A stretch of DNA of 64,000 nt from Thermoplasmatota archaeon (GCA_041601615.1 JBFIHX010000001.1:288001-352000), one strand, 5' to 3'; shown: positions 18,420 to 64,000, counted from the stretch's first letter. The notes: generated by a model from the sequence alone, not told the origin. Numbers and translations are program-made.

Positions 18420-18420
18420 C

Positions 18421-39444: not shown

Positions 39445-39449
39445 CCCCC

Positions 39450-49164: not shown

Positions 49165-51453
49165 GTGGCCCTGACCGACCTCGGCATCGACCCCCGGGTA
49201 GCCGAGCACCTGGAGGCCCAAGGCATCACTTCGCTCTACCCGCCCCAAGAGGACGCCTGGAGCATCATCGACAAAGGCCACAACACCGTCGTCGCCATCC
49301 CAACCGCCAGCGGCAAGAGCCTCATCGCCTACCTCGCCATCCTGCACCGCTGGCTGCGCACGGGCAAAAAAGCCCTCTACATCGTACCCCTGCGCGCCCT
49401 CGCCTCCGAAAAAGTGGACGAATTACGTGCCTTCCGGGACCTCGGCATCAAAATCGGAGTCGCCACCGGAGACCTCGACGAACAAGACCCACGCCTCGGC
49501 AGCAACGACGTCATCGTCTGCACCAGCGAAAAAGCCGACAGCCTCCTGCGCCACCGCACCCCATGGGTCGACGAAGTAGGCTGCGTCGTTGCCGACGAAT
49601 TCCACCTCGTCCACGACCCCAACCGAGGACCCACCCTCGAAGTCATCCTCAGCCGCTTCCGGGCCCTCCTTCCCGCCGCCCAAATCGTCGGCCTTTCCGC
49701 CACCGTCCAAAACGCTCCGGAACTCGCGCGCTGGCTCGGCGCCGAATTGGTCACCAGCGAATGGCGCCCCGTCGACTTGCGCATGGGCACCTACTACGGC
49801 AACGCCCTGCAATTTTTGGGCCAAGCCGCCACCAAACTGGAAGCCGGCCGCGACCCCATCGCCGCCCTCGTCGAACAAACCATCCAAGAAGGCGCCCAAT
49901 GCCTCGTCTTCGTCAGCACCCGTCGCTCAGCGGAAGCGCAGGCGGTCAAACTCGGAGGCGTCGTGCGCGACCTTCTGGACAGCAATGACCTCGCCGCCCT
50001 CGAAGAAGCCGTCAAGGAACTCGGCGACGACGAAGACGCAGCCGGCGGACCCACGCAGCAAAAACTCAGCAAACTCATCAAAGCCGGTGTCGCCTACCAC
50101 ACCGCCGGCCTCGACGCCAAGCAACGGCGCTTCGTGGAGGCGAACTTCCGCGCCGGCCGCATCAAGGTCCTCTGCGCAACACCCACCCTCGCCGCCGGCG
50201 TCAACACCCCCGCCCGCCGCGTCATCATCCGCGACATGACCCGGTTCGAAGCAGGCCAAGGCAACCGACCCCTGCCCGTCATGGAAGTCAAGCAAATGAT
50301 GGGACGCGCCGGACGCCCCCGCTACGACCCCCACGGCGAAGCGATTCTGCTGGCCAAGACCTGGGAAATGAAGGAAACCCTCGAACACGAATACCTACAC
50401 GGCGAACCAGAGCCGATCAGCAGCAAACTCGCCGCCGACGCCGCCCTGCGCATCCATACGCTTGCCAGTGTCGCCGGCAACTACGCCGAGAGCTTCGAGG
50501 ACCTCGTCCAATTCTACGGCCACACGTTCTGGGGCCAACAAAGCCAAGACTGGATCATCCGCGACCGCGTCGAAGACACCGTGTTTTTCTTGGAGGAAAA
50601 CGGCTTCCTGGAGCGCGACGGCGGGCGCCTCAAAACCACGCTCTTTGGCAAGCGCACGAGCGACTTGTACATCGATCCGCTTACGGCACTGCGCATGAAG
50701 GAAGCCTTGGATTCCAAGTCCGAGGAGCCCACCGTCTTCGGCGCGCTGCATGTGCTTGCCGGCTGCCCCAACATGTACCCATTGTACCTGCGCCAAAGCG
50801 ACGACTGGGTCCAAGGTGCCTACTACGAACGGTTCCCCAGCCTCCTCATCCACGAGAAGGACCTGGAGGACGAATTCAGCTACACCAAAACCGCGACGCT
50901 GCTCTGGGACTGGATCGAGGAACTGCCACCCAGCGAAGTGGAGGTCAAGTACCAAGTCGGCCCCGGCGACGTGCGCATGCGCGTCGACACCGGCAAATGG
51001 ATGCTGCATGCCTTCCGCGAACTTGCCCGCGCATTGCGCCCCGAATGGCAAGCGCCACTCAGCGACCTCGTCCTCCGCCTCGAACACGGCATCAAAGCCG
51101 ACGCCTTGCCCATGATTCGCCTCAAGGGCATTGGTCGCGTGCGCGCCCGCAACTTGATCCGCGCCGGATTCAAGCGCCCTGCGGACTTGGCAGGCGTCCC
51201 CGTCAGCCGCATCGCCAAGCTCCCCGGCTTCGGCGACAAACTTGCCCGGGAACTTCTGCGCCAAGTGGGCGACGACCCCGGCGAAGCGCCCAAAACCAAA
51301 GCGAAACCGAGCAAGAAAGCCGCAGCGACCGCGGCCCCCGAGCCCGAACCCGAACCCACTCCTGGACCAACAAACGAAGCAGCCGAGGACGAAGCCCCCG
51401 ACCCGGACGCACCCGGACAAACAGGACTCTCCGCATGGGGCATGAAACCATGA
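49165..51453 (+). CDS. hel308: Hel308 (Ski2-like) ATP-dependent DNA helicase
   Basis: PTASGKS, PLRALASE, DEFH, LSAT, TPTLAAGVN, QMMGRAGRP and a C-terminal HhH (GIGRVRAR). Confidence 0.93.
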   Translation: MALTDLGIDPRVAEHLEAQGITSLYPPQEDAWSIIDKGHNTVVAIPTASGKSLIAYLAILHRWLRTGKKALYIVPLRALASEKVDELRAFRDLGIKIGVATGDLDEQDPRLGSNDVIVCTSEKADSLLRHRTPWVDEVGCVVADEFHLVHDPNRGPTLEVILSRFRALLPAAQIVGLSATVQNAPELARWLGAELVTSEWRPVDLRMGTYYGNALQFLGQAATKLEAGRDPIAALVEQTIQEGAQCLVFVSTRRSAEAQAVKLGGVVRDLLDSNDLAALEEAVKELGDDEDAAGGPTQQKLSKLIKAGVAYHTAGLDAKQRRFVEANFRAGRIKVLCATPTLAAGVNTPARRVIIRDMTRFEAGQGNRPLPVMEVKQMMGRAGRPRYDPHGEAILLAKTWEMKETLEHEYLHGEPEPISSKLAADAALRIHTLASVAGNYAESFEDLVQFYGHTFWGQQSQDWIIRDRVEDTVFFLEENGFLERDGGRLKTTLFGKRTSDLYIDPLTALRMKEALDSKSEEPTVFGALHVLAGCPNMYPLYLRQSDDWVQGAYYERFPSLLIHEKDLEDEFSYTKTATLLWDWIEELPPSEVEVKYQVGPGDVRMRVDTGKWMLHAFRELARALRPEWQAPLSDLVLRLEHGIKADALPMIRLKGIGRVRARNLIRAGFKRPADLAGVPVSRIAKLPGFGDKLARELLRQVGDDPGEAPKTKAKPSKKAAATAAPEPEPEPTPGPTNEAAEDEAPDPDAPGQTGLSAWGMKP

Positions 51454-51965
51454 TCGACGACCCAGAATTCCAACTCGCAGCCGCCGGGGTACGCGGACCG
51501 CTCACCCTCGAAAACGTCCTCTACCAAGCCCGCAAAGCCTCCCGCCTTGCGCCCCTTCAAGTGGTACGCGCCGATCGTGTGCTTGGCATCGATCACCTAC
51601 GCGCTGCCGCCCTCCACGCCAACCGCGCCTTCGACGAGGGCCGCAACAAAGCCGACGACCTCGCGGTCGAATTTGCCCGGTACCTCAGCGGCAAACGCAC
51701 TATTCGTGAAGCGATCCAACACGTGGGCGTCCCCGCCACCATGGGCACCGCAGTCGTCGTCAGCCTCGGCAAACGCCGCACGGACGCAGTAGCCTACTTT
51801 GCCGACATGCTTGGACTCGACCAAGACGACGCACTCATCGAGCCCAGTACGGAAAAACTGGCACAATTTGGCCTGCCAAACGGACTCCTAGAATCCACGC
51901 CAGAACACCTGCAATTCGACCGCGTTCTGGAGGCCGTAGCGGCCGTCGACTTGATGCGCAACTGA
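51450..51965 (+). CDS. cgi121: KEOPS complex subunit Cgi121
   Basis: Q...AD...G..HL..A...A.RA, E..RYLSG.R.I.EA..VG and VLE.VA. Coupled to hel308 by an ATGA overlap. Confidence 0.8.
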   Translation: MIDDPEFQLAAAGVRGPLTLENVLYQARKASRLAPLQVVRADRVLGIDHLRAAALHANRAFDEGRNKADDLAVEFARYLSGKRTIREAIQHVGVPATMGTAVVVSLGKRRTDAVAYFADMLGLDQDDALIEPSTEKLAQFGLPNGLLESTPEHLQFDRVLEAVAAVDLMRN

Positions 51966-52025
51966 AGGCTCATATACAGGACCTGTGTCGGCCGGCTTGT
52001 CCCCCCGGGGACGCACCAACCCACT

Positions 52026-52099
52026 GGTCCTGTGGGGTAGCTTGGATATCCTGGTGGCTTGCGGAGCCACTGACACGTGTTCGAATCGCGTCAGGACCG
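52026..52099 (+). tRNA. tRNA-Arg (anticodon GCG), no encoded CCA
   Basis: Acceptor stem GGTCCTG/CAGGACC, D-arm with AG..GG, anticodon stem GTGGC/GCCAC with loop TT-GCG-GA, T-arm ACGTG-TTCGAAT-CGCGT and discriminator G. Confidence 0.95.
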
Positions 52100-52100
52100 C

Positions 52101-52122
52101 TCTTTTCCCTTTGTTTTCATTG
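52101..52122 (+). terminator. T-rich archaeal terminator after the tRNA
   Basis: TCTTTTCCCTTTGTTTTCATT directly after the tRNA. Confidence 0.55.
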
Positions 52123-52352
52123 TCTGCGGGCAATGGGTTCGTCGCGCCTTGGAGCGTGGCTGCTGTCAAGTGCTCAGCGCGCACTTTTTCTTGGCGTTCG
52201 GGGCCGGACTTGCCTTTTGCCTCGACGGGCTCGCGGGGGCGGTGCGTGGTTGGGTGCTTTGCCTGGAACGGTGGGTTGAGGCTGTGCGTTGTCGCTGCCG
52301 CTGGACTCTTTGACCCGTGTTTCGGGGCGCTCTTGTGCCGGCGCCCTCGGGG

Positions 52353-55300
52353 TTATTGAGCAAGCCGCGCGGCTTCTTCATCCGTCATGCCTTCCAGTTT
52401 CTCCATCAGAAGCGCTTCGACGGCTTGGCTTAGCTCATAGATGGTGCGCACTTCAAAGAGCCGGGGCAGCGCGACTTCTACGTCGAAGGTTTCGCGGATG
52501 TGGGCGACCATTTTGGTGGCTATGAGGCTGTGTCCGCCGAGGTCGAAGAAGTCGTCGTGGATGCCGATGCCTTGGAAGCCGAGGATGTTTTCCCAGATTT
52601 CGACGAGTGCTTCTTCGAGCGGCTCTGTGGCGGCGGCGTAGGGCACGGGCAGATCGGGCCTGGTGTGGCCGTTGGTTGCCGGGAAGGGGCCGGTTCCGGT
52701 CTCCGGGGTTGGCGCGTCGGTTTCGTGGGTGTCTTCGCCTTTGCCGATGCCGGCTTCTTGCGCGGGGAGCCAGTAGCGCCGCTTTTCCCAGGGGTAGGTG
52801 GGTAATTGCACGCGGCGGGGGCGGGGGCCTTGGTGCACTTGTGGCCAGTTGGGTGTGGCGCCTGCGTTCCAGAGTCTTGCGAGGGCTTCGCGCAGGACGA
52901 TGGCGTCGTCGGCGTTGTCCTTGGGGTGGCCGAGGCTGGTGAGAATGGGTGCGCGTTTGGTCGCGGGGTCGAGTTGCCGTTGGGCGAGGCTGCTGAGGGT
53001 GCGGCCGGGTCCGACTTCGAGCAAGGCGAGACCGGGTTGTTCGAGCAAATGCGCGACGCCTTTGGCAAAGTCCACGGGTTGGCGCACGTGTTGGACCCAG
53101 TACATGGGGTCCTTGGCTTGCGCGTCTGTCAGCGGTGCTCCGGTTTGGTTGCTGATGATGGGAATCGTGGGTGCTTGAAGTGGGGCGCTGCGCACGATGG
53201 CTTCGAAGTCTTCGAGGGCGCCGTCCACGAGGGGCGAGTGGAAGGCGCGGGTGACGTGCAAGAGCCGGGCTTCGATGCCTTGGTTTTCGAGGCGCGCGTG
53301 CAGTTGTTCGATGCCTGCGGGGCTGCCACTGGCGACACAGGTGCCGGGGGCGTTGATAGCGGCAATGCTTGCGTCGGCTTCGAGCAGGGCTTGCACGGTT
53401 TCGGCTTCGGCGCTGATGGCGAGCATGCGGCCTTCGGGGGTGTTTTGCATGAGCCTTGCGCGGGCGGCGACGATGCGGGTGGCGTCGGCCAGTTCGAAGA
53501 CGCCTGCGAGGGTGGCTGCGACGAGTTCGCCGAGGCTGTGGCCCAGGAGGGCTCTGGGTTCGATGCCCCAGTGCATCCAAAGACGCGCCAGTGCGTATTC
53601 GACGGCAAACAGGGCGGGTTGGGTTTGTTGGGTTTCGTTGAGGCGGGCGGTGGCGGCGGCGAGGTCCGTTCCGGCCGCGGGGTAGAGCAGGGCGCTGAGG
53701 TCTTCCACGCCGTGTAGGGCAAAGTGCCCGGCGCATTCGTCGAAGTGTTCGCGGAAGGTTGGCTCGTTTTGGTAGAGCGCTTGCGCCATGTGGATGTGTT
53801 GTGCGCCTTGGCCGGGCAGCAAGAACGCCACGTCCAGTTCCTTTGCGTCGGTGCTGTGCGCGAAGGTGCGGCGGGCTGGCCCGGCGCCGCGTAGGATTTC
53901 GATGGCTTCGGTTCGGTCCTTGGCGAGGATACTGCGTCGGTGGCCGTGTCGTTTGCGACCGGTTTGGAGGGTCCAGGCGGCGTCTTCGAGTGCGGGGGCT
54001 TCTGTCTCGAGGTGGGTGGCGAGTGCTGCGACGCTAGCTTCGAGGGCACTGGCGCTGCGGGCGGAGAGTGTGATCAATTGCGGCGCGGCGCTTGGTTCGG
54101 GCCGAGGCGCAGCGGGGGGCGCTTGTTCGAGGATGACGTGGGCGTTGGTGCCGCCGATGCCGAAGCTGCTGACACCTGCGCGGCGGGGCGTGCCGGGAGC
54201 GGATGGGAACGGTACGGGCGCAGTGGGAACGTGGAAGCGCGTTTCGGTAAGGCGGAGCGCCGGGTTTGGTGTCTGGAAGTGCAAGGTGGGTGGAATCGTG
54301 CCGTGCTCCACGGCCAGGGCTGCTTTGATGAGTCCTGCGACTCCGGCGGCTGCGTCGAGGTGTCCGATGTTGGTTTTTACGGCGCCGAGTGCGATGCTGT
54401 TGGGTGGGCCGGCTCCGAGGGCGCGGTGGAGCGCGGTCACTTCGATGGGGTCGCCGACGGGGGTGCCGGTGCCGTGGGTTTCGATGTATCCAATGGTGTC
54501 GGGTTCGATGCCGGCGACAGCCAGTGCTTCGCTGACCACAGTGGATTGGCCTTCGATGCTGGGGGCAGTGTAGCCGGTTTTGGCAGCACCATCGTTGTTG
54601 GTTGCGGCTCCTTTGATGACGGCATGGATGGGGTCGCCGTCGGCCAGGGCGTCGCTGAGCCGTTTGAGGGCGACGACGCCGGTTCCGCTGCCTGCGACGG
54701 TGCCGTTTGCGCCTGCGTCAAAGGCGCGGCAGATGCTGTCTTTGCTGCCGATGTTGCCTTCTTCCAGGAAGTATCCGAAAGCCGGGTCGGGCTTGATGCT
54801 GCTTGCACCCGCAAGTGCTACGTCACATTGGTAGGACAGGAGTGATTCGATGGCTTGCACGACGGCAACAAGGCTGGTGCTGCATGCGGTGTGGATGCTG
54901 AGGCTGGGGCCGCGAAGGTCGAGCCGGTAGCTGGTTTGGGTGGCGACGAAGTCTTTTTCGTTGCTGGCGATGGCTTGGAAGGCGTTGGCGCCTTGCATGA
55001 CGCGCGGATTGGGCAGGACGTGACGCAGGTAGTAGGTGTTGATGCCGACGCCGGCGTAGACGCCCACCCGGGTCTCAGGGTCGTTGCCGTCGTGGCCGGC
55101 TCGTTGGAGTGCTTCGGCGGCGCATTCCAAAAAGAGGCGAATTTGGGGATCCATCACTTCGGCTTCGCGGGGTGTGAGTCCGAAGTAGCCGGCGTCGAGG
55201 TGTCCGATGTCGGGAATCATGCCGACGGCGGTCTCGCCGGCGCGGTCGGCTGCGGGCACGGGCCGGGGCGCGTCCTCGTACCAGTGGCGGCGAGGGGTCA

Positions 55301-55412
55301 GGGATTCGATGCCGTTGAGGAGGTTGTCAAAGAATTGTTCGGGGGATTGGGCTCCGGGGAAGCGGCAGGACATGCCGACGATGGCAATGGCTTCGGGGTC
55401 TTGGTCGGTCAT
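52353..55412 (-). CDS. Type I PKS module KS-AT-carrier protein (1019 aa, no KR/DH/TE)
   Basis: IAIVGMSCRFPGA, DPQ.R, TACSTSL (Cys), HGTGT and NIGHL (KS); GQGAQ, GHSLG and RAFHS (AT); FFDLGGHSL (carrier). GGAGG RBS at 55420-55424. Start ATG 55412 overlaps the upstream TGA. Confidence 0.95.
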   Translation of the reverse strand: MTDQDPEAIAIVGMSCRFPGAQSPEQFFDNLLNGIESLTPRRHWYEDAPRPVPAADRAGETAVGMIPDIGHLDAGYFGLTPREAEVMDPQIRLFLECAAEALQRAGHDGNDPETRVGVYAGVGINTYYLRHVLPNPRVMQGANAFQAIASNEKDFVATQTSYRLDLRGPSLSIHTACSTSLVAVVQAIESLLSYQCDVALAGASSIKPDPAFGYFLEEGNIGSKDSICRAFDAGANGTVAGSGTGVVALKRLSDALADGDPIHAVIKGAATNNDGAAKTGYTAPSIEGQSTVVSEALAVAGIEPDTIGYIETHGTGTPVGDPIEVTALHRALGAGPPNSIALGAVKTNIGHLDAAAGVAGLIKAALAVEHGTIPPTLHFQTPNPALRLTETRFHVPTAPVPFPSAPGTPRRAGVSSFGIGGTNAHVILEQAPPAAPRPEPSAAPQLITLSARSASALEASVAALATHLETEAPALEDAAWTLQTGRKRHGHRRSILAKDRTEAIEILRGAGPARRTFAHSTDAKELDVAFLLPGQGAQHIHMAQALYQNEPTFREHFDECAGHFALHGVEDLSALLYPAAGTDLAAATARLNETQQTQPALFAVEYALARLWMHWGIEPRALLGHSLGELVAATLAGVFELADATRIVAARARLMQNTPEGRMLAISAEAETVQALLEADASIAAINAPGTCVASGSPAGIEQLHARLENQGIEARLLHVTRAFHSPLVDGALEDFEAIVRSAPLQAPTIPIISNQTGAPLTDAQAKDPMYWVQHVRQPVDFAKGVAHLLEQPGLALLEVGPGRTLSSLAQRQLDPATKRAPILTSLGHPKDNADDAIVLREALARLWNAGATPNWPQVHQGPRPRRVQLPTYPWEKRRYWLPAQEAGIGKGEDTHETDAPTPETGTGPFPATNGHTRPDLPVPYAAATEPLEEALVEIWENILGFQGIGIHDDFFDLGGHSLIATKMVAHIRETFDVEVALPRLFEVRTIYELSQAVEALLMEKLEGMTDEEAARLAQ

Positions 55413-57280
55413 GGGGTGTCCTCCGGGGTTCGTGTGGGTCGGCGGCGTTGCGTGTGCGCGGCGCGGCGGGCGGCTCCGCGATCGGTGCCGGCTTGGCGGG
55501 ACGGGGTGGCTGCATGGGCGGTTGGTTGTGCGCCTTGTTGCAGTTCTTGGAGTTGCTTGGAGAGCCCGGCGATGGTGGGGTGTTCGAAGAGCAGGAGGAT
55601 GTCGAGGGGGCGTCCGAGTTCCTGTTCGAGGGCTTCCTGGACGCGGGCGGCAAGCAGGGAGTGGGCCCCGAGTTCGAACACGTTGTCGTGGATGCCGGGG
55701 GTTTTGGCGAGTTCTTGTGTCCACAATTGCACGAGGAGCCGTTCGGTGGGGTTGCGGGGGCCTTCGACGAGGACCGGTTCGACTTGGACGAGGCTGCGGG
55801 GGTCGGGGAGTGCTTTGCGGTCGAGTTTGCCGTTGGGTGTCCGGGGCAGGGGGGCGAGTTCGATGAAGTGGCTGGGCACGAGAGCGGGCGGAAGTTCGGT
55901 GTGGAGTGCTTCGCGCAAGCTGCGGGCCTGTTCGGGCGCCATGGTGCTTGCGGGCCCTTCGGTGGTTTCGTCAAGGTGGACGTAGGCGATGAGTTGTTTG
56001 CTGTCTCGGGTGTCCTCGTGGGTGGCTACGGCGCAGGCGCGGACGCGGGGCACGTTTCCGAGCGCCGCTTCGATGTCGCCAAGTTCCACGCGCATGCCTC
56101 GGATTTTGACTTGTCCGTCGATGCGGCCGTGCATTTCGACGCATCCGTCGGGGCGAATGAGGCCGCGGTCGCCGGTTCGGTATAGTCGGGTTCCTGGCAA
56201 TTCGGGGTGGTCTTGGAACCGGGCGGCGGTGGCTTCGGGCATGCCGAGGTAGCCGCGTGCGAGTCCGATGCCGCTGATGCACAACTCGCCGGCCTGTCCG
56301 GGGGGCAGGACTCGGCCTTCGTCATCGATGCTGATCATCTGTACGCCGTCGATGGGTCGTCCGAGGCAGGCGGGTGTGCCGGGTTGGCAGTCGTCGGTGC
56401 TGGTCCAGATGGTGGTTTCGGTGGGGCCGTAGAGGTTGACGAAGCGGCGGCCGTTGCCCCATCGGGCGACGAGGGATTCGGGGAAGGCGTCGCCGCCGAC
56501 CATCATGGCTCGAAGGGCCGGGAGCGGCGTTTCGGGGAGGGTGGCAAGCACGCTTGGTGGAAAGAAGGCGATGTTGGCTTGGGTGTTGGCAAGATATCGG
56601 GCAAGGCCGGTGCCGCTGCGGCGCAGGTCGTCGGGGATCAGGATGAGGGTGGCGCCGGCGCTCCAGGGCAGGAAGATTTCGAAGAGGGATGCGTCCCAGG
56701 CGAGGTTGCTGTATTGGGTGCAGCGTTCGTTGGGTTGGACGGCAAATTGATTGCGTTGGATCTGGGCGCGGTGGGCGAGGCCTTCGTGTTCGACGAGGAC
56801 GCCTTTGGGTGTGCCTGTGCTGCCGCTGGTGTAGAGGACGTAGGCGAGGTTGCTTGCGCGGACGGTGGGCAGTTTGCTTGCGTCGTGGTCCGTGGGTGCG
56901 GGTTGCAGGCGGGGCGGCGCGAGGGTCTGGCCGCTGCCTTTGCCATCGATTCGCGTTGTGATGGTGCAGTGGGGTTGTGCGTCTGCGAGGATTGCGTCGC
57001 GTCGGGCGGGGGGAAGCGCTGGATCAAGGGGCAGGTAGGCGCCGCCGGCTTTCCAGATTCCGAGCATGGCGACGAGGGTTTCGGGAGTCCGGTGGGCGTC
57101 TACGGCGACGATGGCTTCCGGTTGGAGGCCTGTGGCGAGCAATTGCTGGGCGAAGATGGTGGCAGCGAGGTCCAATTGTGCGTAGGTGAGGCGCGTGGTT
57201 CCCGCTTCGAGTGCGATGGCGTCGGGCGTTCTTTGGGCGTGCTGCCTGATGAGTTCGTGGGCAAGGGGGTGCGGGTTCAT
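55409..57280 (-). CDS. Stand-alone NRPS A-T didomain (623 aa)
   Basis: YTSGSTGTPKG, YGPTE, YRTGD, GRIDGQVKIRG and NGKLD (A); FELGAHSL (T). AGGAGG RBS at 57285-57290. Confidence 0.95.
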   Translation of the reverse strand: MNPHPLAHELIRQHAQRTPDAIALEAGTTRLTYAQLDLAATIFAQQLLATGLQPEAIVAVDAHRTPETLVAMLGIWKAGGAYLPLDPALPPARRDAILADAQPHCTITTRIDGKGSGQTLAPPRLQPAPTDHDASKLPTVRASNLAYVLYTSGSTGTPKGVLVEHEGLAHRAQIQRNQFAVQPNERCTQYSNLAWDASLFEIFLPWSAGATLILIPDDLRRSGTGLARYLANTQANIAFFPPSVLATLPETPLPALRAMMVGGDAFPESLVARWGNGRRFVNLYGPTETTIWTSTDDCQPGTPACLGRPIDGVQMISIDDEGRVLPPGQAGELCISGIGLARGYLGMPEATAARFQDHPELPGTRLYRTGDRGLIRPDGCVEMHGRIDGQVKIRGMRVELGDIEAALGNVPRVRACAVATHEDTRDSKQLIAYVHLDETTEGPASTMAPEQARSLREALHTELPPALVPSHFIELAPLPRTPNGKLDRKALPDPRSLVQVEPVLVEGPRNPTERLLVQLWTQELAKTPGIHDNVFELGAHSLLAARVQEALEQELGRPLDILLLFEHPTIAGLSKQLQELQQGAQPTAHAATPSRQAGTDRGAARRAAHTQRRRPTRTPEDTP

Positions 57281-60200
57281 GCGACCTCCTTGGGTGTGAG
57301 GTGTGCGTTCAGGGTCTCTGCTAGGTCTTCCACGAATCCGGGTTCTAGGATGTGGTCGTGGGTGCCGGGAATGGTGGCTTCGCGGGGGGCCTTGGAGAGG
57401 TGTTTGTACCAACTGGAGACGAGGGTGGGTAGCTGGGCGCGGGTGTCGTCGGTGACGAGCAGGATTGCCGGGGCTTGGACGGTTCCTGGTTCGTGTTCGA
57501 GCATGGCTTGGATGTGGGCTTGGCGCACGGCGAGGCGGCGGGCCACGTCGGCTCGGTCTGGTTCTTGGTCGGGGGTGAGGCCTACGAGTTGCAGGATTTC
57601 GGGACCGATGGGGCCGTCTTCGAGTTCGACCTTGGTTTTGAGGTGGCTTGCGAGGTTGAATGTGGGGGTTGGTTCCAGGAGCACCAATTGGTCCACGGTG
57701 TGTCCGTCGGCTTCCAGGATGCGGGTCATTTCGTGGGCGATGAGGGCGCCGAAGGACCAGCCGCCGAGGGTGTAGGGGGCTTGGGGTTGGATGGTGCGCA
57801 TGTCGTGGAGGTATTGCTTGGCGAGTTCGGTGATGGAGGAGTTTGGTGTGGTGCCTTCTTGGATGCCGGGGGCTTGGAATGCGTGGAGGGCGTGGTGGGG
57901 GAGCATCCGGGCGAGGGGTGCGAAGGGGCCGGCGCCTCCTGCTGCGGCGTGGACGAGGAAGAGGGGGTTGTTGGAGCGTTGTCCGAAGGAGACGATGCTG
58001 CCGTTGCTGGCGGCGGTGCCGGTTTCGATGGCGTTGGCGAGTTCTTCGATGTTTTGGAATTCGAACAGTTGTTTGGGTTCGAGGTGGATGCCTTGTTGTT
58101 CGGCAAGGGCGATGACGCGGATGGTGAGGATGCTGTCGCCGCCGATGTCGAAGAAGTTGTCGTGGATGCCGACGTGGTCGCGTTTGAGGACCTTGGACCA
58201 GATGTTGAAGAGGGTTCGTTCTAGTTCTGTGCGGGGTGCTTGGTGGTGGTCGGCGGTTTGGGGGCTGGCGCCGGGCGCGGGGAGGGCTGTTTTGTCGACT
58301 CTGCCGTGGAGGGTCAGGGGCATGGCGTCGAGGGGGACGATGGCGCTGGGGATCATAGAGTCGGGCAGGGTTCGTGCCAGTGCTGCGCGTAGGGCCTCGG
58401 GTGTGCGTTGTTTGCCGTCGCCATGGACGATGTAAGCGATGAGTCGTGGGTTGCCGGGTTCGTCTTCGCGGATGGTTGCGACGGCGGTTGCGATCTCTGC
58501 TTGTTCGTGTAGGGCGGCTTCGATTTCGCCAGGGTCGATGCGGTGGCCTCGAATGTTGATTTGGTCATCCATGCGGCCAAGGTACTCGAGTTGGCCGTCG
58601 GGGCGCCAGCGGGCGATGTCGCCGGTCCGGTGCATGCGTTCGCCGGTTGCAAAGGGTGCTTCGACGAATCGCTCGTTGGCGAGGCCTGGGCGGTTGATGT
58701 AGTCCGTGGCGAGGCCGGTGCCGGCGATGCAGAGTTCTCCGGCGATGCCTACGGGGACGGGTTGGAGGTGGGCGCCGAGCACATAGGCGCGGTTGTTGGC
58801 GATGGGTCGGCCGATGGGGGTGGTGCCTTGGTGGTCTGCGGAGATTTCGGCGAGGGTTGCGATGACCGTCGCCTCCGTGAGGCCATAGGCGTTCGCGAGT
58901 GAAACCTTGCGGGCCCAGGTGCGGGCGAGTGCGGGGGGCAGTGGGTCGCCGCGGGTGAGCAGTCGTTCGAGGTGGGGTAGCTGCACGTCTGGTGGCAGGG
59001 TTGCCAGGACGGCGGGGGGCAACAGCACCGAGGTGATTTCTTGCTCGGCGAGGATGCGGTGCAGGTTGGCGCCGAGGGGGGTGGTGCTGGGGGTTGGGAT
59101 GATGAGGCTGGCGCCGTTGGCGAGTGTTCCGATCATTTCGAGGATGGATCCGTCGTCGCCGGCACTGGCGTATTGCAGCACGCGGCTCTTGGGGTGGATG
59201 CCGAGTGCGGTTTTGCTTGCTTCGGCGAGATTGCTGATTGCTTGGTGGTGGAGGACGACGCCCTTGGGTCGCCCATCGCTGCCACTGGTGTAGGTGATGA
59301 TCGCGGGCGCTTGTGGTCCGGGGAGGTTGCCTTGTGTTTCGACGCGAGGAGCTTCGTGCGGGATGCTGTCGAGGGTGATGCGGGTGCCGGGCCAGGTGCC
59401 AAGCAGCGCTTCTTGTTTGGCGTGGTGGAGGACTGTTTTGATATGGGCGTCGTTGAGGATGTAGGCGATGCGATCGCGGGGGGCGCTTGGTGCGATGGGC
59501 ACGTAGACGGCGCCGGCTTTGAGGACGCCGAGCAGGGCGGCGGGCGTGTCGGTGCTGCGTTCGAGCAGGACGGCGACATGGTCTCCGGGTTGGGTTCCGG
59601 ATGCCTTGATGTGGGCTGCGATGGCTTCGGCGCGGTCGTCTAGTTGCGCGTAGGTCCATGTGGAGTCGCCGTGGAGGACGGCGGGTGCGTCGGGCGTGCG
59701 GTGTCGTTGTTCTTGGACGAGGTCGTGGATGCAGTGGGCGTCGGGGTAGGGCGCGGAGGTTTGGTTCCAGGTGTGCAAGACGAGTTCGCGTTCGGCGGCT
59801 GGTAGGAGGCTGAGTCCGGACAGGGGTGTGTCAGGGTCGTTGAGGACGGCTTCGATGAGGGCTTGGAATTGGTTGCAGAGGCGATCCATGGTGGTGGCAT
59901 CGAAGAGGTCGCTGCGGTATTCGACGAGGCCTTCGAGGCGCTCTTCGGCGTCGGCGACGAACATGGTGATGTCAAATTTGGAGGCGTTGCTGCTGACGGG
60001 GATGCCGCCTACGCGCACGCCGCCCCATTTGTTGCCTTCCATGGCGTCGTCTTGCAGGGCGAACATGGCTTGGAAGAGGGGCGATCGGCTGGTGTCTCGT
60101 TGGGGGTGCAGTTCGCTGACGAGGCGTTCGAAGGGTACGTCTTGGTTGGCGTAGGCGTCGAGGCAACTGTCGCGTACGCGGCTTAGAAGTTCGCGGAAGC

Positions 60201-63200
60201 TGGGGTCGCCTTGGACGTCGGCGCCGAGTACGAGGGTGTTGACGAAGAAGCCAAGGAGGCCTTCGGTTTCGGCTCGGGTGCGGCCGGCGACGGGGGTACC
60301 GATGGCAAAGTCTTCTTGTCCGCTCCAGCGGTGGAGGATGGTTTCGAAGGCGGCAAGCAAGGGCATGAAGAGGGTGACGCCTTCTTCGCGGGCGAATGTT
60401 TTGAGGCGTTCGGAGAGGTGGCTTGGGAGTGCGAACCAGCGGTGGCTGCCGCGGAAGGATTGTACTTTGGGTCGGGGGCGGTCCGTGGGGAGGTCTAGGG
60501 ATTGGACGTGGGCAAGTTCCTTGTGCCAGTGTTTCATTTGCTTGGCGAGTGCTGTTTCGTCGAGGTGTTGGCGTTGCCAGCGGGCGAAGTCTCCGTATTG
60601 GACTTCGGGGTCGGGGAGGCTGTGGGGTGTGCCTGCGTGGTAGGCTTCGTAGAGGACGCCGATTTCGTGCAGCAGGACACTCATGGACCAGCCATCGAAG
60701 GCGATGTGGTGGAAGCCTAGCAGCATCCAGTGGTCGTCGCGGGCGAGGCGTAGGAGTTTGACGCGGTAGACGGGGCCGTGGGCTAGGTCGAAGGGTTTGC
60801 GGGATTCTTCGTTTGCGATAGCTTGGGCGGCTTGTTCGCGGTCGGCCACGGGTATGTGGGTCAAGTCGATGATTTCGAGGGGTTGTCGGTCGTGGGGGCC
60901 GACGAGTTGGGTGGGTTGTCCTTCGTCGTCGGTGGTGTAGGTGGTGCGCAGGACGTGGTGTCGGCGTATGGTTTCGCTGAGGGCACTTTCGAGGGCGCGC
61001 ACGTCGAGGATGCCGGAGAGGCGGTAGAAGGCGGGGATGTTGTAGACGGCGCTCCCGGGTTCCCATTGGTCGAGGAACCAGAGTCGTTGTTGGCTGAAGG
61101 AGAGTGGCGCGGATTCTGTTTCGTCGTTGCCGTCGAATCGAGTAACGGGGGGCACCAGCAGCCCTGAGCCGTCGTCGCGCAGGCGGCGGACTTCGTGGGC
61201 GAGTGCTTCGAGGGTGCGGGCTGAAAATAGGGTCTTCAAAGGCACTTCCATGTCGAGTGCGTTGCGGATGCGGCTGACGACTTGGGTGGCGGTGAGGCTG
61301 TGGCCGCCGAGTTCGAAGAAGTCGTCGTGGACACCGACGCGGGTGGCGCCAAGCACGCGGGTCCAGATGCTGGCGAGGATTTGTTCGACGGGGTCGCGGG
61401 GGGCGATGTGGTTGCTGCCGAGGCGGGCGATGTCTTCGGGGGCGGGGAGTGCTTTGCGGTCGACTTTGCCATTGGGGGTGAGCGGTAGGGCTTCGAGGGC
61501 GACGAAGGCCGAGGGGATCATGGCGTCGGGGAGGGTCTGGGCTAGGAAGCTGCGCAGGTCGGGGGCGGCGGGGACGTTGTCTCCAAGGAGGTAGGCGACG
61601 AGTCGTTGGCCGCCGGCGGGGTCGGGCAGGGCCATGGCGAATGCGTCGGCAACTAGGGGGTGGGCGCGCAGGGCGTTTTCCACTTCGCCGCATTCGATGC
61701 GGTGGCCGCGGATCTTGACTTGGTGGTCGATGCGTCCCAAAAATTCCAGTTCGCCGTCGGGGTTCCAGCGGGCGAGATCCCCGGTGCGGTAGAGGCGGGC
61801 GGTGGCGTCGTCGGGCTGGGTGGGGTCGTTTATGAAGCGGTCGGCGGTGAGTTCGGGGCGGTCGTGGTAGCCGCGTGCGAGGCAGTCGCCGCCGATGCAG
61901 AGTTCTCCTGCGACGCCTGCGGGGACGGGGCGTTTTTTGGTGTCGAGTAGCACGATGCGGGCGCCTGCAAACGGTTTGCCGATCGTGGGGGTGCCGTCGC
62001 CGACTTGGCATTGTTTGATGCTGGCGCAGACGGTGCTTTCGGTGGGGCCGTAGGCGTTGAACATGCTGCGTCCGTGGGCCCAAGCGTTGCAGAGGTCGGC
62101 GGCGAGTTCTTCTCCGGCGGAGACGACGACGCGGAGGTTGGGCAGGGATTCAGGTTCGAGGCTTCGAAGGACCGTGGGAGGCAGGGTTGCCGCGTGGATG
62201 GTTTCCTGGACGAGGAAGGATTGGAGTGCTTCTCCGGCGACGCGCTGGGGCATCAGGCAGAGGGTTGCGCCGTTTGCGAGGGCCATGAGCATTTCCCAGA
62301 CGCTGGCGTCGAAGCTCCAGGAGGCAAATTGCAGCACACGGGTGCCGGGTTGGATGTCAAAGGCGGCTTGTTGGGCGGCGGCGAGGGCGGCGGCGCCCTG
62401 GTGTTCGACGAGGACGCCTTTGGGTTTGCCGGTGCTGCCGCTGGTGTAGATGATGTAGGCAAGGTCGCGGGGCTTCGTCTCGACCGGGGCGAAGGCTGCC
62501 GGCGCCTTCCAGGTGGATTCGTCGTCGAGCAAGATCAAGTCGGCTCCGGTGTCGGTGAATCGATCGGCGAGGTCGCTGGTGGTGATGATGCATTGGGCTT
62601 GACTGTCTTGCAACATGTGCGCAATGCGGTCGGCGGGGTATTCGGGGTCGACGGGGACGTAGGCGGCGCCGGCTTGGAAGGTGCCGAGGGCGGCTGCGAC
62701 GGCGTCGGGGCTGGGTTTGAGGGCCAGGGCGAGGACGGTGCCGTGCTCGATGCCGATAGCGCGAAGGCATGCGGCGAATGCGTTGCTGCGCGCTTGCAGT
62801 TCTTGGTAGGTGTACTTGATTCCGGCTTGTTCGACGGCGATGGCCTTGGGGTCCGCCGTGGCGCGGGCGTGGACGAGGTCGTGGATGCAGGCGGGTGCCA
62901 CATGGGTGGTCGTTTGGCCCCAGTGGGCGAGGCGGGCGGATTCGTTGGCTCCGAGGATGCCGAGGTCTCCGACTGTGGCTGTGGGTGGCGCGTGGGCGAG
63001 GCCTTCGAGCACATGGGTGAGGTGTTCCATGAGCCGTTGGATGCCGGCGTCGTCGAAGCGGCTGGTGTCAAAGAACAGGCGCAGGCCGAGCCCGTCACCA
63101 GGTGCGGCCACGAGGGAGAGAGGGAAGTTGGTGCGGCTGAGTCCCTGGACGCTTTGGATGGGGAGGGCTTGTTTGCTGCCTTCGCTCCAAGGGTAGTTTT

Positions 63201-64000
63201 CGAACACGAGCAGGGACTCGAACAGGCTCTGGCCGCGAGCCAGTGGACTCCAGGATTGGATTTCGGGCAGCGGGACGTGTTCGTGGTCGCGCATTTCGAT
63301 CTGTTGTCGTTGCAGGCCCATGAGCCAGTTGGGCACGGTCTCGTTGTCGGGGAGGCGGACGCGCACGGGGAGGGTGTTGATGAACAATCCAACCATGGAT
63401 TCGACGCCGTCGAGTTCTGCGGGGCGGCCGCTGACGGTGGCGCCAAACAGCACGTCGTCGCGGTCGTTGTGGCGGCCGAGGACCACGGCCCAGGCGGCTT
63501 GGAGGACGGTGCTGAGGGTGACGCGGGTCCGGCGGGCGAGGTCTTGCAGGGCCTGGAGGGTGCCCGTGTCGAGGTGGGTGGAGACTTCGCCGGGTAGCAG
63601 GGATTTGGTGCCGGTGGCAAGGTTTGCGGATCCACCTTCGAAGGGCAGGGGCGTTGGAGATTCGAGGCCAGCGAGCGCGTTTTGCCAGTAGGTTTTGGCT
63701 GCGGCGGGGTCTTTGTTTTGCAGGTGGGCTACGAACGCAGAAAACGGCCGGGGCTCGGGGAGTTCTAGCGCTTGGTCTTTGCAGTGGGCGCTGTAGGCTT
63801 GGCCGAGTTCGTCGAGCAAGACGGGGAGGCTCCAGCCGTCGAGGAGGGTGTGGTGGTTGGTCCAGACCATGTGGTGTTGTTCGGGGGCGTGCTGGATGAG
63901 GGCGACGCGCATCAGGGGGGGTGCTGCGAGGTCGAAGCCTCGGATGCGGTCTTCGTCGAGGAACGCTTCCAATCGTGCCTCAAGGGCGGCGGCGGAGTCG
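57277..64000 (-). CDS. Multimodular NRPS, 5'-truncated by the window edge: C-A-T-C-A-T-TE
   Basis: HHTLLDGWS (C), YTSGSTGKPKG/NGKVD (A1), GGHSL (T1), HHIAFDGWS (C), TSGSDGRPKG/HGRVD (A2), GGDSI (T2) and GWSFG...H (TE). The frame stays open to base 64000. Confidence 0.96.
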   Translation of the reverse strand, partial: DSAAALEARLEAFLDEDRIRGFDLAAPPLMRVALIQHAPEQHHMVWTNHHTLLDGWSLPVLLDELGQAYSAHCKDQALELPEPRPFSAFVAHLQNKDPAAAKTYWQNALAGLESPTPLPFEGGSANLATGTKSLLPGEVSTHLDTGTLQALQDLARRTRVTLSTVLQAAWAVVLGRHNDRDDVLFGATVSGRPAELDGVESMVGLFINTLPVRVRLPDNETVPNWLMGLQRQQIEMRDHEHVPLPEIQSWSPLARGQSLFESLLVFENYPWSEGSKQALPIQSVQGLSRTNFPLSLVAAPGDGLGLRLFFDTSRFDDAGIQRLMEHLTHVLEGLAHAPPTATVGDLGILGANESARLAHWGQTTTHVAPACIHDLVHARATADPKAIAVEQAGIKYTYQELQARSNAFAACLRAIGIEHGTVLALALKPSPDAVAAALGTFQAGAAYVPVDPEYPADRIAHMLQDSQAQCIITTSDLADRFTDTGADLILLDDESTWKAPAAFAPVETKPRDLAYIIYTSGSTGKPKGVLVEHQGAAALAAAQQAAFDIQPGTRVLQFASWSFDASVWEMLMALANGATLCLMPQRVAGEALQSFLVQETIHAATLPPTVLRSLEPESLPNLRVVVSAGEELAADLCNAWAHGRSMFNAYGPTESTVCASIKQCQVGDGTPTIGKPFAGARIVLLDTKKRPVPAGVAGELCIGGDCLARGYHDRPELTADRFINDPTQPDDATARLYRTGDLARWNPDGELEFLGRIDHQVKIRGHRIECGEVENALRAHPLVADAFAMALPDPAGGQRLVAYLLGDNVPAAPDLRSFLAQTLPDAMIPSAFVALEALPLTPNGKVDRKALPAPEDIARLGSNHIAPRDPVEQILASIWTRVLGATRVGVHDDFFELGGHSLTATQVVSRIRNALDMEVPLKTLFSARTLEALAHEVRRLRDDGSGLLVPPVTRFDGNDETESAPLSFSQQRLWFLDQWEPGSAVYNIPAFYRLSGILDVRALESALSETIRRHHVLRTTYTTDDEGQPTQLVGPHDRQPLEIIDLTHIPVADREQAAQAIANEESRKPFDLAHGPVYRVKLLRLARDDHWMLLGFHHIAFDGWSMSVLLHEIGVLYEAYHAGTPHSLPDPEVQYGDFARWQRQHLDETALAKQMKHWHKELAHVQSLDLPTDRPRPKVQSFRGSHRWFALPSHLSERLKTFAREEGVTLFMPLLAAFETILHRWSGQEDFAIGTPVAGRTRAETEGLLGFFVNTLVLGADVQGDPSFRELLSRVRDSCLDAYANQDVPFERLVSELHPQRDTSRSPLFQAMFALQDDAMEGNKWGGVRVGGIPVSSNASKFDITMFVADAEERLEGLVEYRSDLFDATTMDRLCNQFQALIEAVLNDPDTPLSGLSLLPAAERELVLHTWNQTSAPYPDAHCIHDLVQEQRHRTPDAPAVLHGDSTWTYAQLDDRAEAIAAHIKASGTQPGDHVAVLLERSTDTPAALLGVLKAGAVYVPIAPSAPRDRIAYILNDAHIKTVLHHAKQEALLGTWPGTRITLDSIPHEAPRVETQGNLPGPQAPAIITYTSGSDGRPKGVVLHHQAISNLAEASKTALGIHPKSRVLQYASAGDDGSILEMIGTLANGASLIIPTPSTTPLGANLHRILAEQEITSVLLPPAVLATLPPDVQLPHLERLLTRGDPLPPALARTWARKVSLANAYGLTEATVIATLAEISADHQGTTPIGRPIANNRAYVLGAHLQPVPVGIAGELCIAGTGLATDYINRPGLANERFVEAPFATGERMHRTGDIARWRPDGQLEYLGRMDDQINIRGHRIDPGEIEAALHEQAEIATAVATIREDEPGNPRLIAYIVHGDGKQRTPEALRAALARTLPDSMIPSAIVPLDAMPLTLHGRVDKTALPAPGASPQTADHHQAPRTELERTLFNIWSKVLKRDHVGIHDNFFDIGGDSILTIRVIALAEQQGIHLEPKQLFEFQNIEELANAIETGTAASNGSIVSFGQRSNNPLFLVHAAAGGAGPFAPLARMLPHHALHAFQAPGIQEGTTPNSSITELAKQYLHDMRTIQPQAPYTLGGWSFGALIAHEMTRILEADGHTVDQLVLLEPTPTFNLASHLKTKVELEDGPIGPEILQLVGLTPDQEPDRADVARRLAVRQAHIQAMLEHEPGTVQAPAILLVTDDTRAQLPTLVSSWYKHLSKAPREATIPGTHDHILEPGFVEDLAETLNAHLTPKEVA

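What the first reader, a model, noticed from the sequence alone, without database searches (positions are those of the whole stretch)
52353..64000. Hybrid NRPS / type I PKS assembly line in an archaeal chromosome
Seen: three coupled genes (ATGA overlaps at 57277-57280 and 55409-55412) encode a multimodular NRPS of more than 2200 aa, an A-T didomain and a KS-AT-ACP module. They are contiguous with clearly archaeal genes (hel308, cgi121, tRNA-Arg-GCG, archaeal TIM, DUF63). By eye, the coding strand has the same C/A-rich codon style (CAA, GAA, CTC, GCC) as smc and hel308, which argues against a simple chimera. Established: NRPS genes in Archaea are rare and known mainly from a few methanogens, and to my knowledge modular type I PKS or NRPS-PKS hybrids are essentially uncharacterised there. 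Inference: this is a candidate first-of-kind archaeal peptide-polyketide pathway.
Basis: partly seen in the sequence, partly recalled or inferred. Interest (0 to 1): 0.95.

Follow-up and report, generated by a model that had tools for sequence, protein, structure and literature searches.

The report
Peptide-polyketide gene cluster in marine archaeon
A complete bacterial-style assembly line for a small peptide-polyketide compound sits in the chromosome of an uncultured marine archaeon and its close relatives; this is unusual for archaea, but such clusters have already been counted in genome surveys.

Summary
Three translationally coupled minus-strand genes encode KS-AT-ACP (1019 aa), A-T (623 aa) and an NRPS. 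The NRPS is 6008 aa in the full contig: C-A-T-C-A-T-C-A-T-E-C-A-T-C-A-T-TE. Beyond the window lie a DrrAB-type ABC exporter, an Sfp/HetI-like PPTase, a type II thioesterase and an FAD oxidoreductase (about 27.7 kb in all).

The cluster is genuinely archaeal. It lies mid-way in a 436-kb contig between Hel308/Cgi121/tRNA-Arg and GcvT/TrkAH/Elp3/LonB. An independent 33-kb assembly spans the junction. Two other species of the genus have the PKS beside the same tRNA-Arg. Sister-genus genomes have the flanks 4-5 kb apart with no cluster. Its third-codon-position skew matches host genes, not 22 bacterial homologues. The nearest bacterial proteins are 43-51% identical, and the best database hit is 61%.

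The likely order is A-T, then KS-AT-ACP, then NRPS-TE, giving a roughly six-residue peptide with one malonate unit and a D-Phe.

"First of kind" is overstated. Surveys already list archaeal NRPS and T1PKS clusters, this genome has a second, order-wide PfaA-type PKS, and a related cluster occurs in another Thermoplasmatota MAG. Expression and product are unknown. The last A domain is degenerate here.

The parts
49165..51453 (+). Left flank: Hel308-type archaeal helicase
   Evidence: Pfam finds DEAD, Helicase_C, Helicase_dom4_arc and HHH_5. Orthologues are 85-88% identical in G002 and 63-65% in four genus-g5 genomes.
50997..51965 (+). Left flank: Cgi121 (KEOPS subunit). The ORF as listed overlaps Hel308, so the true start is probably later.
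   Evidence: Pfam CGI-121, E 5.6e-06. The gene is syntenic in G002, G023 and G024.
52026..52100 (+). tRNA-Arg (anticodon GCG), the left border of the inserted cluster
   Evidence: ARAGORN. The same tRNA lies next to the PKS 3' end in G002 (L015) and G001 (L119), and between Cgi121 and GcvT in the cluster-free genomes G023 and G024.
52353..55412 (-). Type I PKS module KS-AT-ACP (1019 aa), with no KR, DH or ER
   Evidence: Pfam. The motifs TACS (C175), HGTGT (H313), NIGH (H351), GHSLG, RAFHS and GGHSL are present.
54123..55394 (-). KS domain (aa 7-430)
   Evidence: Pfam ketoacyl-synt 7-255 and Ketoacyl-synt_C 263-379. The Cys-His-His motifs are present.
52881..53825 (-). AT domain (aa 530-844), probably malonyl-CoA specific
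   Evidence: Pfam Acyl_transf_1. NCBIfam FabD, 161.7 bits. GHSLG and RAFHS motifs. The rule linking these motifs to malonyl specificity is recalled, not tested.
52419..52613 (-). ACP domain (aa 934-998)
   Evidence: Pfam PP-binding. GGHSL serine motif.
55409..57280 (-). Stand-alone A-T didomain (623 aa), the proposed loading module
   Evidence: Pfam. NCBIfam TIGR01733 scores 389 bits against a cut-off of 317.4. A metagenomic homologue, P0005, has this didomain fused to KS-AT-ACP.
57277..64000 (-). C-terminal 2240 aa of the 6008-aa NRPS (part of C4, then A4-T4-C5-A5-T5-TE). The gene continues beyond the window to G000:C1:363303.
   Evidence: Pfam and ORF coordinates in the full contig.
61465..62868 (-). 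A4 adenylation domain, with a Phe-like specificity code
   Evidence: Pfam and the A4-A5 segment alignment. The code is read by a recalled positional rule.
59782..61116 (-). C5 condensation domain
   Evidence: Pfam Condensation at aa 962-1406 of P0003. HHIAFD motif.
58300..59721 (-). A5 adenylation domain with non-consensus core motifs (approximate limits)
   Evidence: The motifs read TSGSDGRPKG, YGLTE, HRTGD, INIRG and HGRVD. The G002 orthologue is canonical at all of them.
57304..57966 (-). TE release domain
   Evidence: Pfam Thioesterase at aa 2012-2232 of P0003. GWSFG motif.

Best explanation
This is a genuine, chromosomally encoded hybrid NRPS / type I PKS biosynthetic gene cluster of about 27.7 kb (G000:C1:340353-368053) in a marine Thermoplasmatota archaeon. 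It was acquired from bacteria by the ancestor of this genus, or earlier. It sits between tRNA-Arg(GCG) and the GcvT-TrkAH block, and it has since been inherited vertically and recoded to the host's codon style. Proposed mechanism (inferred): the in-cluster Sfp/HetI-like PPTase converts the seven carrier domains to their holo form. The stand-alone A-T loads an amino acid. The KS-AT-ACP module extends it by one malonyl unit and leaves the beta-keto group, because there is no KR, DH or ER. The NRPS, which begins with a C domain, takes this chain and adds five residues. The recalled specificity-code rule suggests Gly-like, Gly, Phe (epimerised to D-Phe by the E domain), Phe/aromatic, and one unknown residue. 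The C-terminal TE releases the product by hydrolysis or cyclisation. The type II thioesterase proofreads, the FAD oxidoreductase tailors, and the DrrAB-type ABC pump exports. Malonyl-CoA can come from the acetyl-CoA carboxylase genes that flank the genome's second, PfaA-type PKS.
For: Domains and motifs. Accessory genes: ABC ATPase, ABC-2 permease, PPTase (ACPS + AASDHPPT_N, best NCBIfam match HetI), TEII and FAD oxidoreductase. Archaeal location: the cluster lies at 340-368 kb of a 436-kb contig. Hel308, Cgi121 and SMC are on one side; Elp3, archaeal ATPase_2 and LonB are on the other. An independently built 33,247-nt contig at depth 26.4 covers window 49500-56500 with 0 differences, though that run may be the source sample. 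Three further runs of the same study show depth 3-7 on both sides of the junction. The genus-mate G002 carries the whole cluster collinearly on six short contigs. One contig joins Hel308 (85%), Cgi121 and tRNA-Arg to the PKS (68%), and another joins the FAD oxidoreductase (82%) to HAD, LOG, GcvT and TrkA. G001 has the PKS end next to tRNA-Arg(GCG). In G023 and G024 (sister genus g5) Hel308 and GcvT are about 4-5 kb apart with the tRNA between them and no cluster. Codon style: third-position GC skew is -0.63 to -0.71 and AT skew +0.54 to +0.68, like Hel308, MOFRL and SMC. The 22 bacterial homologues I picked (of 79 loci) range from -0.22 to +0.09 and from -0.30 to +0.06. No close bacterial donor appeared: the best bacterial loci are 43-51% identical, and the best non-self hit among the 8000 best word-sharing candidates drawn from a 5.8-billion-protein database is 61%. 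Bacterial origin: in a 34-row tree the three Thermoplasmatota sequences form one clade (SH-aLRT 99) nested among bacterial sequences. Assembly order: the NRPS starts with C and ends with TE. C1 is 39-45% identical to C2, C3 and C5 and only 27% to the post-E C4, so C1 looks like an ordinary chain-accepting C domain. P0005 is a natural A-T-KS-AT-ACP fusion, 54% identical to the A-T and 61% to the PKS. All 10 bacterial homologue loci I examined place the KS between NRPS modules. Malonyl-CoA supply: biotin carboxylase and carboxyltransferase lie beside the PfaA-type PKS.
Against: There is no evidence of expression or of a product. The module-5 A domain in this genome departs from consensus in five core motifs, including Arg in place of the A10 lysine, while G002 is canonical. 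The last module may therefore be impaired here. The cluster is compositionally somewhat atypical. Only 5 of 205 genome windows deviate more in tetranucleotide use (r = 0.966 to the genome mean), and its GC is about 65% against about 62% for the genome. The PPTase, ABC ATPase and FAD oxidoreductase do not share the host's third-position skew, which I cannot explain. The megasynthases are only 62-68% identical between G000 and G002, while several flank genes are 85-94% identical, so the cluster evolves fast. No tRNA-derived direct repeat and no integrase mark the borders in G000, so the mode of insertion is unknown. The substrate codes rest on a recalled positional rule, not on a predictor. The tree has only 34 rows, taken from a pattern-based sample, and used the quick method. 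The third archaeal sequence (G138) comes from 4-kb contigs of a bin with about 4% contamination.
Confidence: 0.78

Rival explanations
1. The cluster is bacterial DNA wrongly joined or binned into an archaeal MAG (assembly chimera).
For: Megasynthase clusters are typical of bacteria, and all close non-archaeal homologues are bacterial. The cluster's tetranucleotide profile is the 6th most deviant of 205 windows.
Against: The cluster is internal to a 436-kb contig with archaeal genes on both sides. A second assembler's 33-kb contig spans the junction without a difference, though that run may be the source sample. The same junctions appear in separately assembled genomes of two other species of the genus. 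The codon third-position skew matches the host and none of 22 bacterial homologues. No homologue exceeds 61% identity outside the genus.
Confidence: 0.02
2. The cluster is real and archaeal but is a decaying or silent relic in this species. The last adenylation domain has lost activity, so no full-length product is made.
For: A5 has non-consensus residues in five core motifs, including the A10 lysine, while the G002 orthologue is canonical. The megasynthases diverge much faster than several flank genes.
Against: The 6008-aa, 623-aa and 1019-aa frames are all open with no stop. The stop/start overlaps are preserved. All other catalytic motifs are intact. Codon usage is strongly host-like, which suggests long-term translation. 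T5 could be loaded in trans.
Confidence: 0.2
3. The assembly order differs from the one proposed. The NRPS would work alone, with C1 as a starter domain taking an acyl-CoA, and the A-T plus KS-AT-ACP would make a separate small molecule or load a carrier domain in trans.
For: Gene order (NRPS, A-T, PKS) is not collinear with the proposed order. The TE sits on the first gene.
Against: C1 groups with the internal C domains at 39-45% identity. A homologue fuses A-T to KS-AT-ACP. In all 10 bacterial homologue loci examined the KS lies between NRPS modules. The PKS has no release domain of its own.
Confidence: 0.12

Closest known systems
Bacterial hybrid NRPS-PKS assembly lines in which a KS-AT-(KR)-ACP module sits between NRPS modules (uncharacterised clusters of Acidobacteriota, Myxococcota, Microcoleus and other cyanobacteria)
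   Same: The KS-AT-ACP architecture and linker domains (KAsynt_C_assoc, CurL-like, RhiE-like) are the same. Identity is 43-51% over the whole module. The KS is flanked by NRPS modules in all 10 loci examined.
   Different: The host here is an archaeon, and the genes are recoded to an archaeal genome's codon skew. Loading module, PKS and NRPS are three separate genes in a non-collinear order. Many of the listed bacterial relatives carry a KR, which is absent here.
Metagenomic protein P0005 (1609 aa, A-T-KS-AT-ACP in one chain; organism unknown)
   Same: It is the best database hit, 61% identical to the PKS and 54% to the A-T, with the same residues at the A-domain pocket motifs.
   Different: It is fused into one polypeptide.
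NRPS Mru_0351 / Mru_0514 of Methanobrevibacter ruminantium (archaeal NRPS; PMC8024701, passages read)
   Same: These are also NRPSs encoded in an archaeal genome with unknown products.
   Different: They belong to a methanogen, have no PKS module, and release the product through a reductase domain rather than a TE. No sequence comparison was made here.
Gramicidin S / tyrocidine starter modules (A(Phe)-T-E)
   Same: Module 3 is A-T-E. Its pocket residues, read by the recalled rule, are DAWTIAAVCK, close to the classic Phe code. PheA (1amu) and tyrocidine synthetases are strong structural-database matches to the stand-alone A-T protein, the only A domain I searched.
   Different: Here the module is internal, not a starter, and specificity is untested.
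PfaA-type PUFA-synthase-like type I PKS of the same genome (G000:C2, 3183 aa)
   Same: It is also a type I PKS in the same archaeon and has its own PPTase domain.
   Different: It has an iterative PfaA architecture (KS-AT-ACPx4-KR-DH...PPTase). It passes the TIGR02813 cut-off and is conserved in 29 of 30 genomes sampled from the order. It is only 30-46% identical to the cluster's KS-AT.

Membership tests
Modular nonribosomal peptide synthetase | Repeated C-A-T modules with a terminal release domain | tested here: met
   Pfam finds six Condensation-type stretches (five C and one E), five AMP-binding domains, five PP-binding domains and one Thioesterase across the 6008 aa. A further A-T is encoded separately.
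Modular nonribosomal peptide synthetase | Catalytic motifs: HHxxxD in C/E domains, carrier serine in T domains, A-domain core motifs including the A10 lysine | tested here: inconclusive
   HHxxxD is present in all six C/E domains. The carrier serine motif is present in all six T domains. A0-A4 have the core motifs as read, with a few non-consensus residues. A5 deviates in five motifs and has Arg at the A10 lysine position. The G002 A5 is canonical.
Type I (modular) polyketide synthase | KS with Cys-His-His, AT with GHSxG serine, and ACP with the carrier serine, all on one polypeptide | tested here: met
   Pfam finds KS, AT and PP-binding. The motifs TACS, HGTGT, NIGH, GHSLG and GGHSL are present.
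Hybrid NRPS-PKS assembly line | NRPS and PKS modules that hand one chain to each other | tested here: inconclusive
   The evidence is indirect: translational coupling, a fused A-T-KS-AT-ACP homologue, an NRPS that begins with an internal-type C domain, and hybrid context in 10 of 10 bacterial homologue loci. Chain transfer itself cannot be tested with these tools.
Hybrid NRPS-PKS assembly line | Sfp-type phosphopantetheinyl transferase available to activate the carrier domains | tested here: met
   ACPS + AASDHPPT_N protein at G000:C1:365312-366127(-). Its best NCBIfam match is HetI at 101.9 bits, below the equivalog cut-off. The whole genome has two ACPS matches, this one and the C-terminus of the PfaA-type PKS.
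Hybrid NRPS-PKS assembly line | MbtH-like helper protein (needed by some A domains only) | tested here: not met
   PF03621 has no match in the 93%-complete genome. This feature is not a requirement of the family.
Native archaeal chromosomal gene cluster (as opposed to contaminant) | Contiguity with archaeal genes, reproducible junctions, and host-like composition | tested here: met
   
Functional biosynthetic pathway | Transcription and a detectable product | not testable with these tools
   No RNA run is listed for this stretch, and no chemistry is available.

The most novel reading that the evidence does not exclude
The cluster is an actively used, vertically inherited archaeal pathway. It would make a previously unknown exported peptide-polyketide: about six residues, one beta-keto C2 unit and a D-Phe. 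It would belong to a small family of such clusters that has spread within Thermoplasmatota (genus g1 and the distant G138 lineage). Its product would be the first nonribosomal peptide-polyketide characterised from any archaeon. The host may be predisposed to run it because its whole order already keeps a PfaA-type PKS, a PPTase and acetyl-CoA carboxylase.
Probability: 0.45. Interest if true: 0.72.

Novelty: new member of a known kind. Interest (0 to 1): 0.5.

Why it matters
No archaeal nonribosomal peptide or polyketide appeared as chemically characterised in what I read. Most archaeal 'BGC' counts come from automated calls on fragmentary MAGs, where contamination is hard to exclude. Here the archaeal ownership of a complete hybrid assembly line is documented unusually well. 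It has a PPTase, an editing thioesterase and an exporter. It has both chromosomal junctions, three species, an empty site in the sister genus, and host-type codon usage. That makes it a well-founded candidate for heterologous expression. It is also a clear case of bacterial-to-archaeal transfer of a megasynthase followed by long residence. It does not open a new category of biology.

Tried and rejected
Integration signature: I searched the cluster and its right border for repeats of the tRNA-Arg and the spacer. Only one 13-nt chance match turned up and none of 14 nt or more, and G000 has no integrase at the borders. The mode of insertion is left open.

Expression: no RNA holder was listed for window 49500-56500, so nothing can be said about transcription.

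Promoter: I read the 100-nt divergent spacer between the NRPS and the ABC ATPase gene and saw no obvious TATA-like box. No claim is made from this.

MbtH: not found with PF03621 in the 93%-complete genome.

Other ORFs: the 4717-aa ORF on contig C5 has the same codon skew, but it is a beta-helix/NosD-type protein, not a megasynthase.

G019 and G006: Hel308 and GcvT lie 20 kb and 56 kb apart on one contig. I fetched the G019 interval (L111) and only GcvT matched my queries. I did not analyse it further.

GTDB-level taxonomy of the genome could not be named. Handles are anonymous, and the NCBI titles of G002 and G138 say only 'Thermoplasmatota archaeon'. A retracted paper (PMC10434046, passages read) attributes T1PKS and HglE-KS clusters to Poseidoniaceae. 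I treat that only as a hint.

C-domain subtypes and A-domain specificities were not run through NaPDoS, antiSMASH or NRPSpredictor, because none is available here.

Literature: searches found no paper describing this cluster or a characterised archaeal NRPS/PKS product. I read only passages returned by 'find' from PMC10105419, PMC12144867, PMC10304266, PMC11051675, PMC13642348, PMC8024701, PMC10434046 and PMC13638183. PMC10308959 had 0 occurrences of 'archaea'. Wang et al. 2014 (PMC4078802) is not held and is cited only as quoted in PMC8024701. Supplements were not requested. Their tables, such as per-phylum BGC lists, may already contain this cluster or its relatives.

Full report
WHAT IS THERE.

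The window is G000:C1:288001-352000 of a 2.79-Mb, 30-contig genome, estimated 93% complete with 0.28% contamination. On the minus strand lie three genes.
- Window 52353-55412 encodes a 1019-aa KS-AT-ACP module.
- Window 55409-57280 encodes a 623-aa A-T didomain.
- Window 57277-63999 encodes the last 2240 aa of an NRPS.

Both ATGA stop/start overlaps are present.

In the full contig the NRPS is one open frame of 6008 aa (C1:345277-363303). Pfam and motif positions give C-A-T-C-A-T-C-A-T-E-C-A-T-C-A-T-TE.

Just past the window end lie five more cluster genes:
- a DrrA-type ABC ATPase (C1:363323-364267, +);
- a DrrB/ABC-2 permease (364264-365337, +);
- an Sfp-type PPTase (365312-366127, -), whose best NCBIfam match is HetI, below the cut-off;
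- a type II thioesterase (366148-366900, +);
- an FAD oxidoreductase of the geranylgeranyl-reductase superfamily (366902-368053, -).

The FAD oxidoreductase belongs to the cluster. It is retained in G002 at 82% identity. In the distant genome G138 it lies directly beside the PKS at 55% identity.

IS IT ARCHAEAL?

The cluster lies at 340-368 kb of a 436-kb contig. To its left are SMC, ScpB, gyrase B/A, a Hel308 helicase with the archaeal domain 4, Cgi121 and tRNA-Arg(GCG). To its right are HAD, LOG, GcvT, TrkA/TrkH, Elp3, an archaeal-type ATPase, methylmalonyl-CoA mutase and archaeal LonB.

Four lines of evidence exclude a chimera.

(i) Independent assembly. Four marine metagenome runs of one study hold the stretch. 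In one, which may be the source sample, a contig of 33,247 nt built by a different assembler covers window 49500-56500 with no difference at depth 26.4. In the other three, pieces tile the junction at depth 3-7 on both sides.

(ii) Genus-mate G002. Its record is titled 'Thermoplasmatota archaeon'. It carries the whole cluster collinearly on six short contigs. One contig holds Hel308 (85%), Cgi121, tRNA-Arg and PKS residues 345-1019 (68%). Another holds the FAD oxidoreductase (82%), HAD, LOG, GcvT and TrkA (94%). The others hold FADox-TEII-PPTase-ABC-NRPS(1-1113), NRPS 1068-3017, NRPS 3034-4357, and NRPS 4689-6007 with A-T and PKS 1-305. The third species of the genus, G001, has the PKS 3' end next to tRNA-Arg(GCG) at a contig end.

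(iii) Empty site in the sister genus. In G023 and G024 (genus g5) Hel308 and GcvT are only about 4-5 kb apart, with Cgi121 and the same tRNA between them and no cluster. The cluster together with HAD and LOG is therefore an insertion of about 30 kb specific to genus g1.

(iv) Codon style. Genes of this genome prefer C over G and A over T at third codon positions. Hel308 has -0.53/+0.60, SMC -0.45/+0.58 and TrkA -0.54/+0.50. The three megasynthase genes share this at -0.63 to -0.71 and +0.54 to +0.68. The 22 bacterial homologues I picked from 79 loci lie between -0.22 and +0.09 and between -0.30 and +0.06.

Three observations point the other way, though weakly.
- The cluster is the 6th most deviant of 205 windows in tetranucleotide use (r = 0.966 to the genome mean).
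- It is about 3 points richer in GC than the genome.
- The PPTase, ABC ATPase and FAD oxidoreductase do not show the host skew. I cannot explain this.

ORIGIN AND SPREAD.

In one genome per species of GTDB, the best bacterial matches to the PKS are 43-51% identical. They include Acidobacteriota, Gemmatimonadota, Myxococcota, Microcoleus and other cyanobacteria.

Among the 8000 best word-sharing candidates from a 5.8-billion-protein collection, the best non-self hit is 61%, followed by 58, 57, 57 and 56%. There is no near-identical donor.

A quick maximum-likelihood tree of 34 rows places G000, G002 and a third Thermoplasmatota sequence (G138, contig L064, 53-55% identical, 73% GC) in one clade. 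That clade has SH-aLRT 99 and is nested among bacterial sequences. G138 belongs to another family of the phylum. It also has NRPS modules 46-48% identical to those here and a PfaA-like KS-AT, all on contigs of about 70-73% GC. These contigs are short, and the bin has about 4% contamination.

Condensation domains are rare in the phylum. They occur in 9 of 401 sampled genomes, 5 of 262 high-quality ones, and 7 of 162 genera. Within the own family, only G002 among 18 others has one.

No tRNA-derived repeat or integrase marks the borders in G000. In G001 a tyrosine integrase lies on the other side of the same tRNA, so this tRNA is a site where foreign DNA enters.

HOW IT PROBABLY WORKS (inference).

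The KS has the Cys-His-His motifs. The AT has GHSLG and RAFHS, which by a recalled rule is malonyl-like. The ACP has its serine. There is no KR, DH or ER.

The NRPS begins with a C domain that is 39-45% identical to C2, C3 and C5. It is only 27% identical to C4, which follows the E domain. C1 therefore looks like a normal chain-accepting C domain, and it needs an upstream carrier protein. The TE is at the NRPS C-terminus.

The best database relative, P0005, fuses A-T to KS-AT-ACP in one chain. In all 10 bacterial homologue loci I examined, the KS lies between NRPS modules.

The most economical order is therefore A-T (loading), then KS-AT-ACP (one malonyl extension with the beta-keto group kept), then C1...TE.

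I read the pocket residues from an alignment of the six A4-A5 segments, using a recalled positional rule:
- A0: DAFFMGLIWK (unknown; the tail resembles the Gly code);
- A1: DIMQLGGIYK (Gly-like?);
- A2: DILQLGVIWK (close to the recalled Gly code);
- A3: DAWTIAAVCK (Phe), followed by E and hence D-Phe;
- A4: DAWTVAAVCK (Phe or another aromatic residue);
- A5: DGLLLRAVIR (unknown).

These are leads, not predictions from a trained tool.

Two PPTase domains exist in the genome, one in the cluster and one at the C-terminus of the PfaA-type PKS. No MbtH was found. Acetyl-CoA carboxylase parts (biotin carboxylase, carboxyltransferase) and BioY flank that second PKS.

A CAUTION ON FUNCTION.

In G000 the module-5 A domain reads TSGSDGRPKG, YGLTE, HRTGD, INIRG and HGRVD. 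That is five non-consensus core motifs, including Arg for the A10 lysine. The G002 orthologue is canonical at all of them. Either T5 is loaded in trans or the last module is impaired in this species. All frames are nevertheless intact.

COMPARISON WITH WHAT IS KNOWN.

The kind of system, a hybrid NRPS/type I PKS line with PPTase, TEII and exporter, is textbook bacterial biochemistry. What is unusual is the host.

- PMC12144867 reports 7731 BGCs in 3451 archaeal genomes, 581 of them NRP-type and 1359 from Thermoplasmatota.
- PMC10304266 reports T1PKS as the second largest BGC class in marine archaea.
- PMC10105419 and PMC11051675 also list NRPS and PKS clusters in archaeal phyla.
- PMC8024701 states that archaeal NRPSs are rare. 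It cites three clusters in 128 genomes in an earlier atlas that I could not read, and says the Methanobrevibacter products are unknown.

Four literature searches found no description of this cluster or of any characterised archaeal NRP/PK product.

VERDICT.

Archaeal ownership is firmly supported. The interpretation as unprecedented is not supported. I file this as a new member of a known kind, with moderate interest. It is a well-documented, complete and apparently long-resident archaeal hybrid cluster. It is suitable for expression work, but its expression and product are unknown and it may have a defective last module in this genome.

Noticed in passing
G000:C2:224430-233981 (L095:4430-13981, minus strand), outside the window: This is a second type I PKS of 3183 aa. 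Its domains are KS, AT, a second KS-like stretch, four ACPs, KR, DH and a C-terminal PPTase domain. It passes the NCBIfam PfaA (PUFA-synthase) cut-off at 1051.9 against 1010.1 bits. Biotin carboxylase, BioY and a carboxyltransferase flank it. Long ORFs with matching KS-AT occur in 23 of 24 genomes of the family and 6 of 6 from two other families of the order. They occur in 0 of 10 genomes from other families of the class. A conserved fatty-acid/polyene-type PKS in an archaeal order deserves its own study.
   Followed up: partly
L119:5380-6525 (G001:C101), next to tRNA-Arg(GCG) at L119:6593-6667: In the third species of the genus, a tyrosine (phage-type) integrase lies on the side of the tRNA-Arg where G000 and G002 have Cgi121/Hel308. 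The neighbouring ORFs have no Pfam match. This tRNA seems to be an integration hot spot.
   Followed up: partly
whole genome; measured on window genes and L094: Coding strands show a strong preference for C over G and A over T at third codon positions (for example Hel308 -0.53/+0.60). None of the 22 bacterial homologues examined shows it. A few genes lack it, namely the PPTase, ABC ATPase, FAD oxidoreductase and window ORFs 17175-18575 and 18421-20034. The cause is unknown.
   Followed up: partly
window 44162-47443 (+): A 1093-aa fusion protein combines CheB methylesterase, CheR methyltransferase, PAS domains and a histidine kinase.
   Followed up: no
L096:3680-17833 (G000:C5, minus strand): A giant 4717-aa ORF has only beta-helix/NosD matches and the same extreme codon skew as the NRPS. 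It is probably a surface protein.
   Followed up: no
window 38268-40403 (+) and L094:14938-16590 (-): A 711-aa protein carries a MeaB GTPase domain in its C-terminal half. A methylmalonyl-CoA mutase large subunit lies 36 kb away, and an acyl-CoA dehydrogenase lies at window 41284-42543. The methylmalonyl-CoA pathway is therefore present near the cluster.
   Followed up: no
G019:C13 and G006:C6: In two other genus-g5 genomes Hel308 and GcvT are 20 kb and 56 kb apart on one contig, instead of 4-5 kb. These genomes have no condensation domain, so other insertions or rearrangements have occurred at the same site.
   Followed up: no
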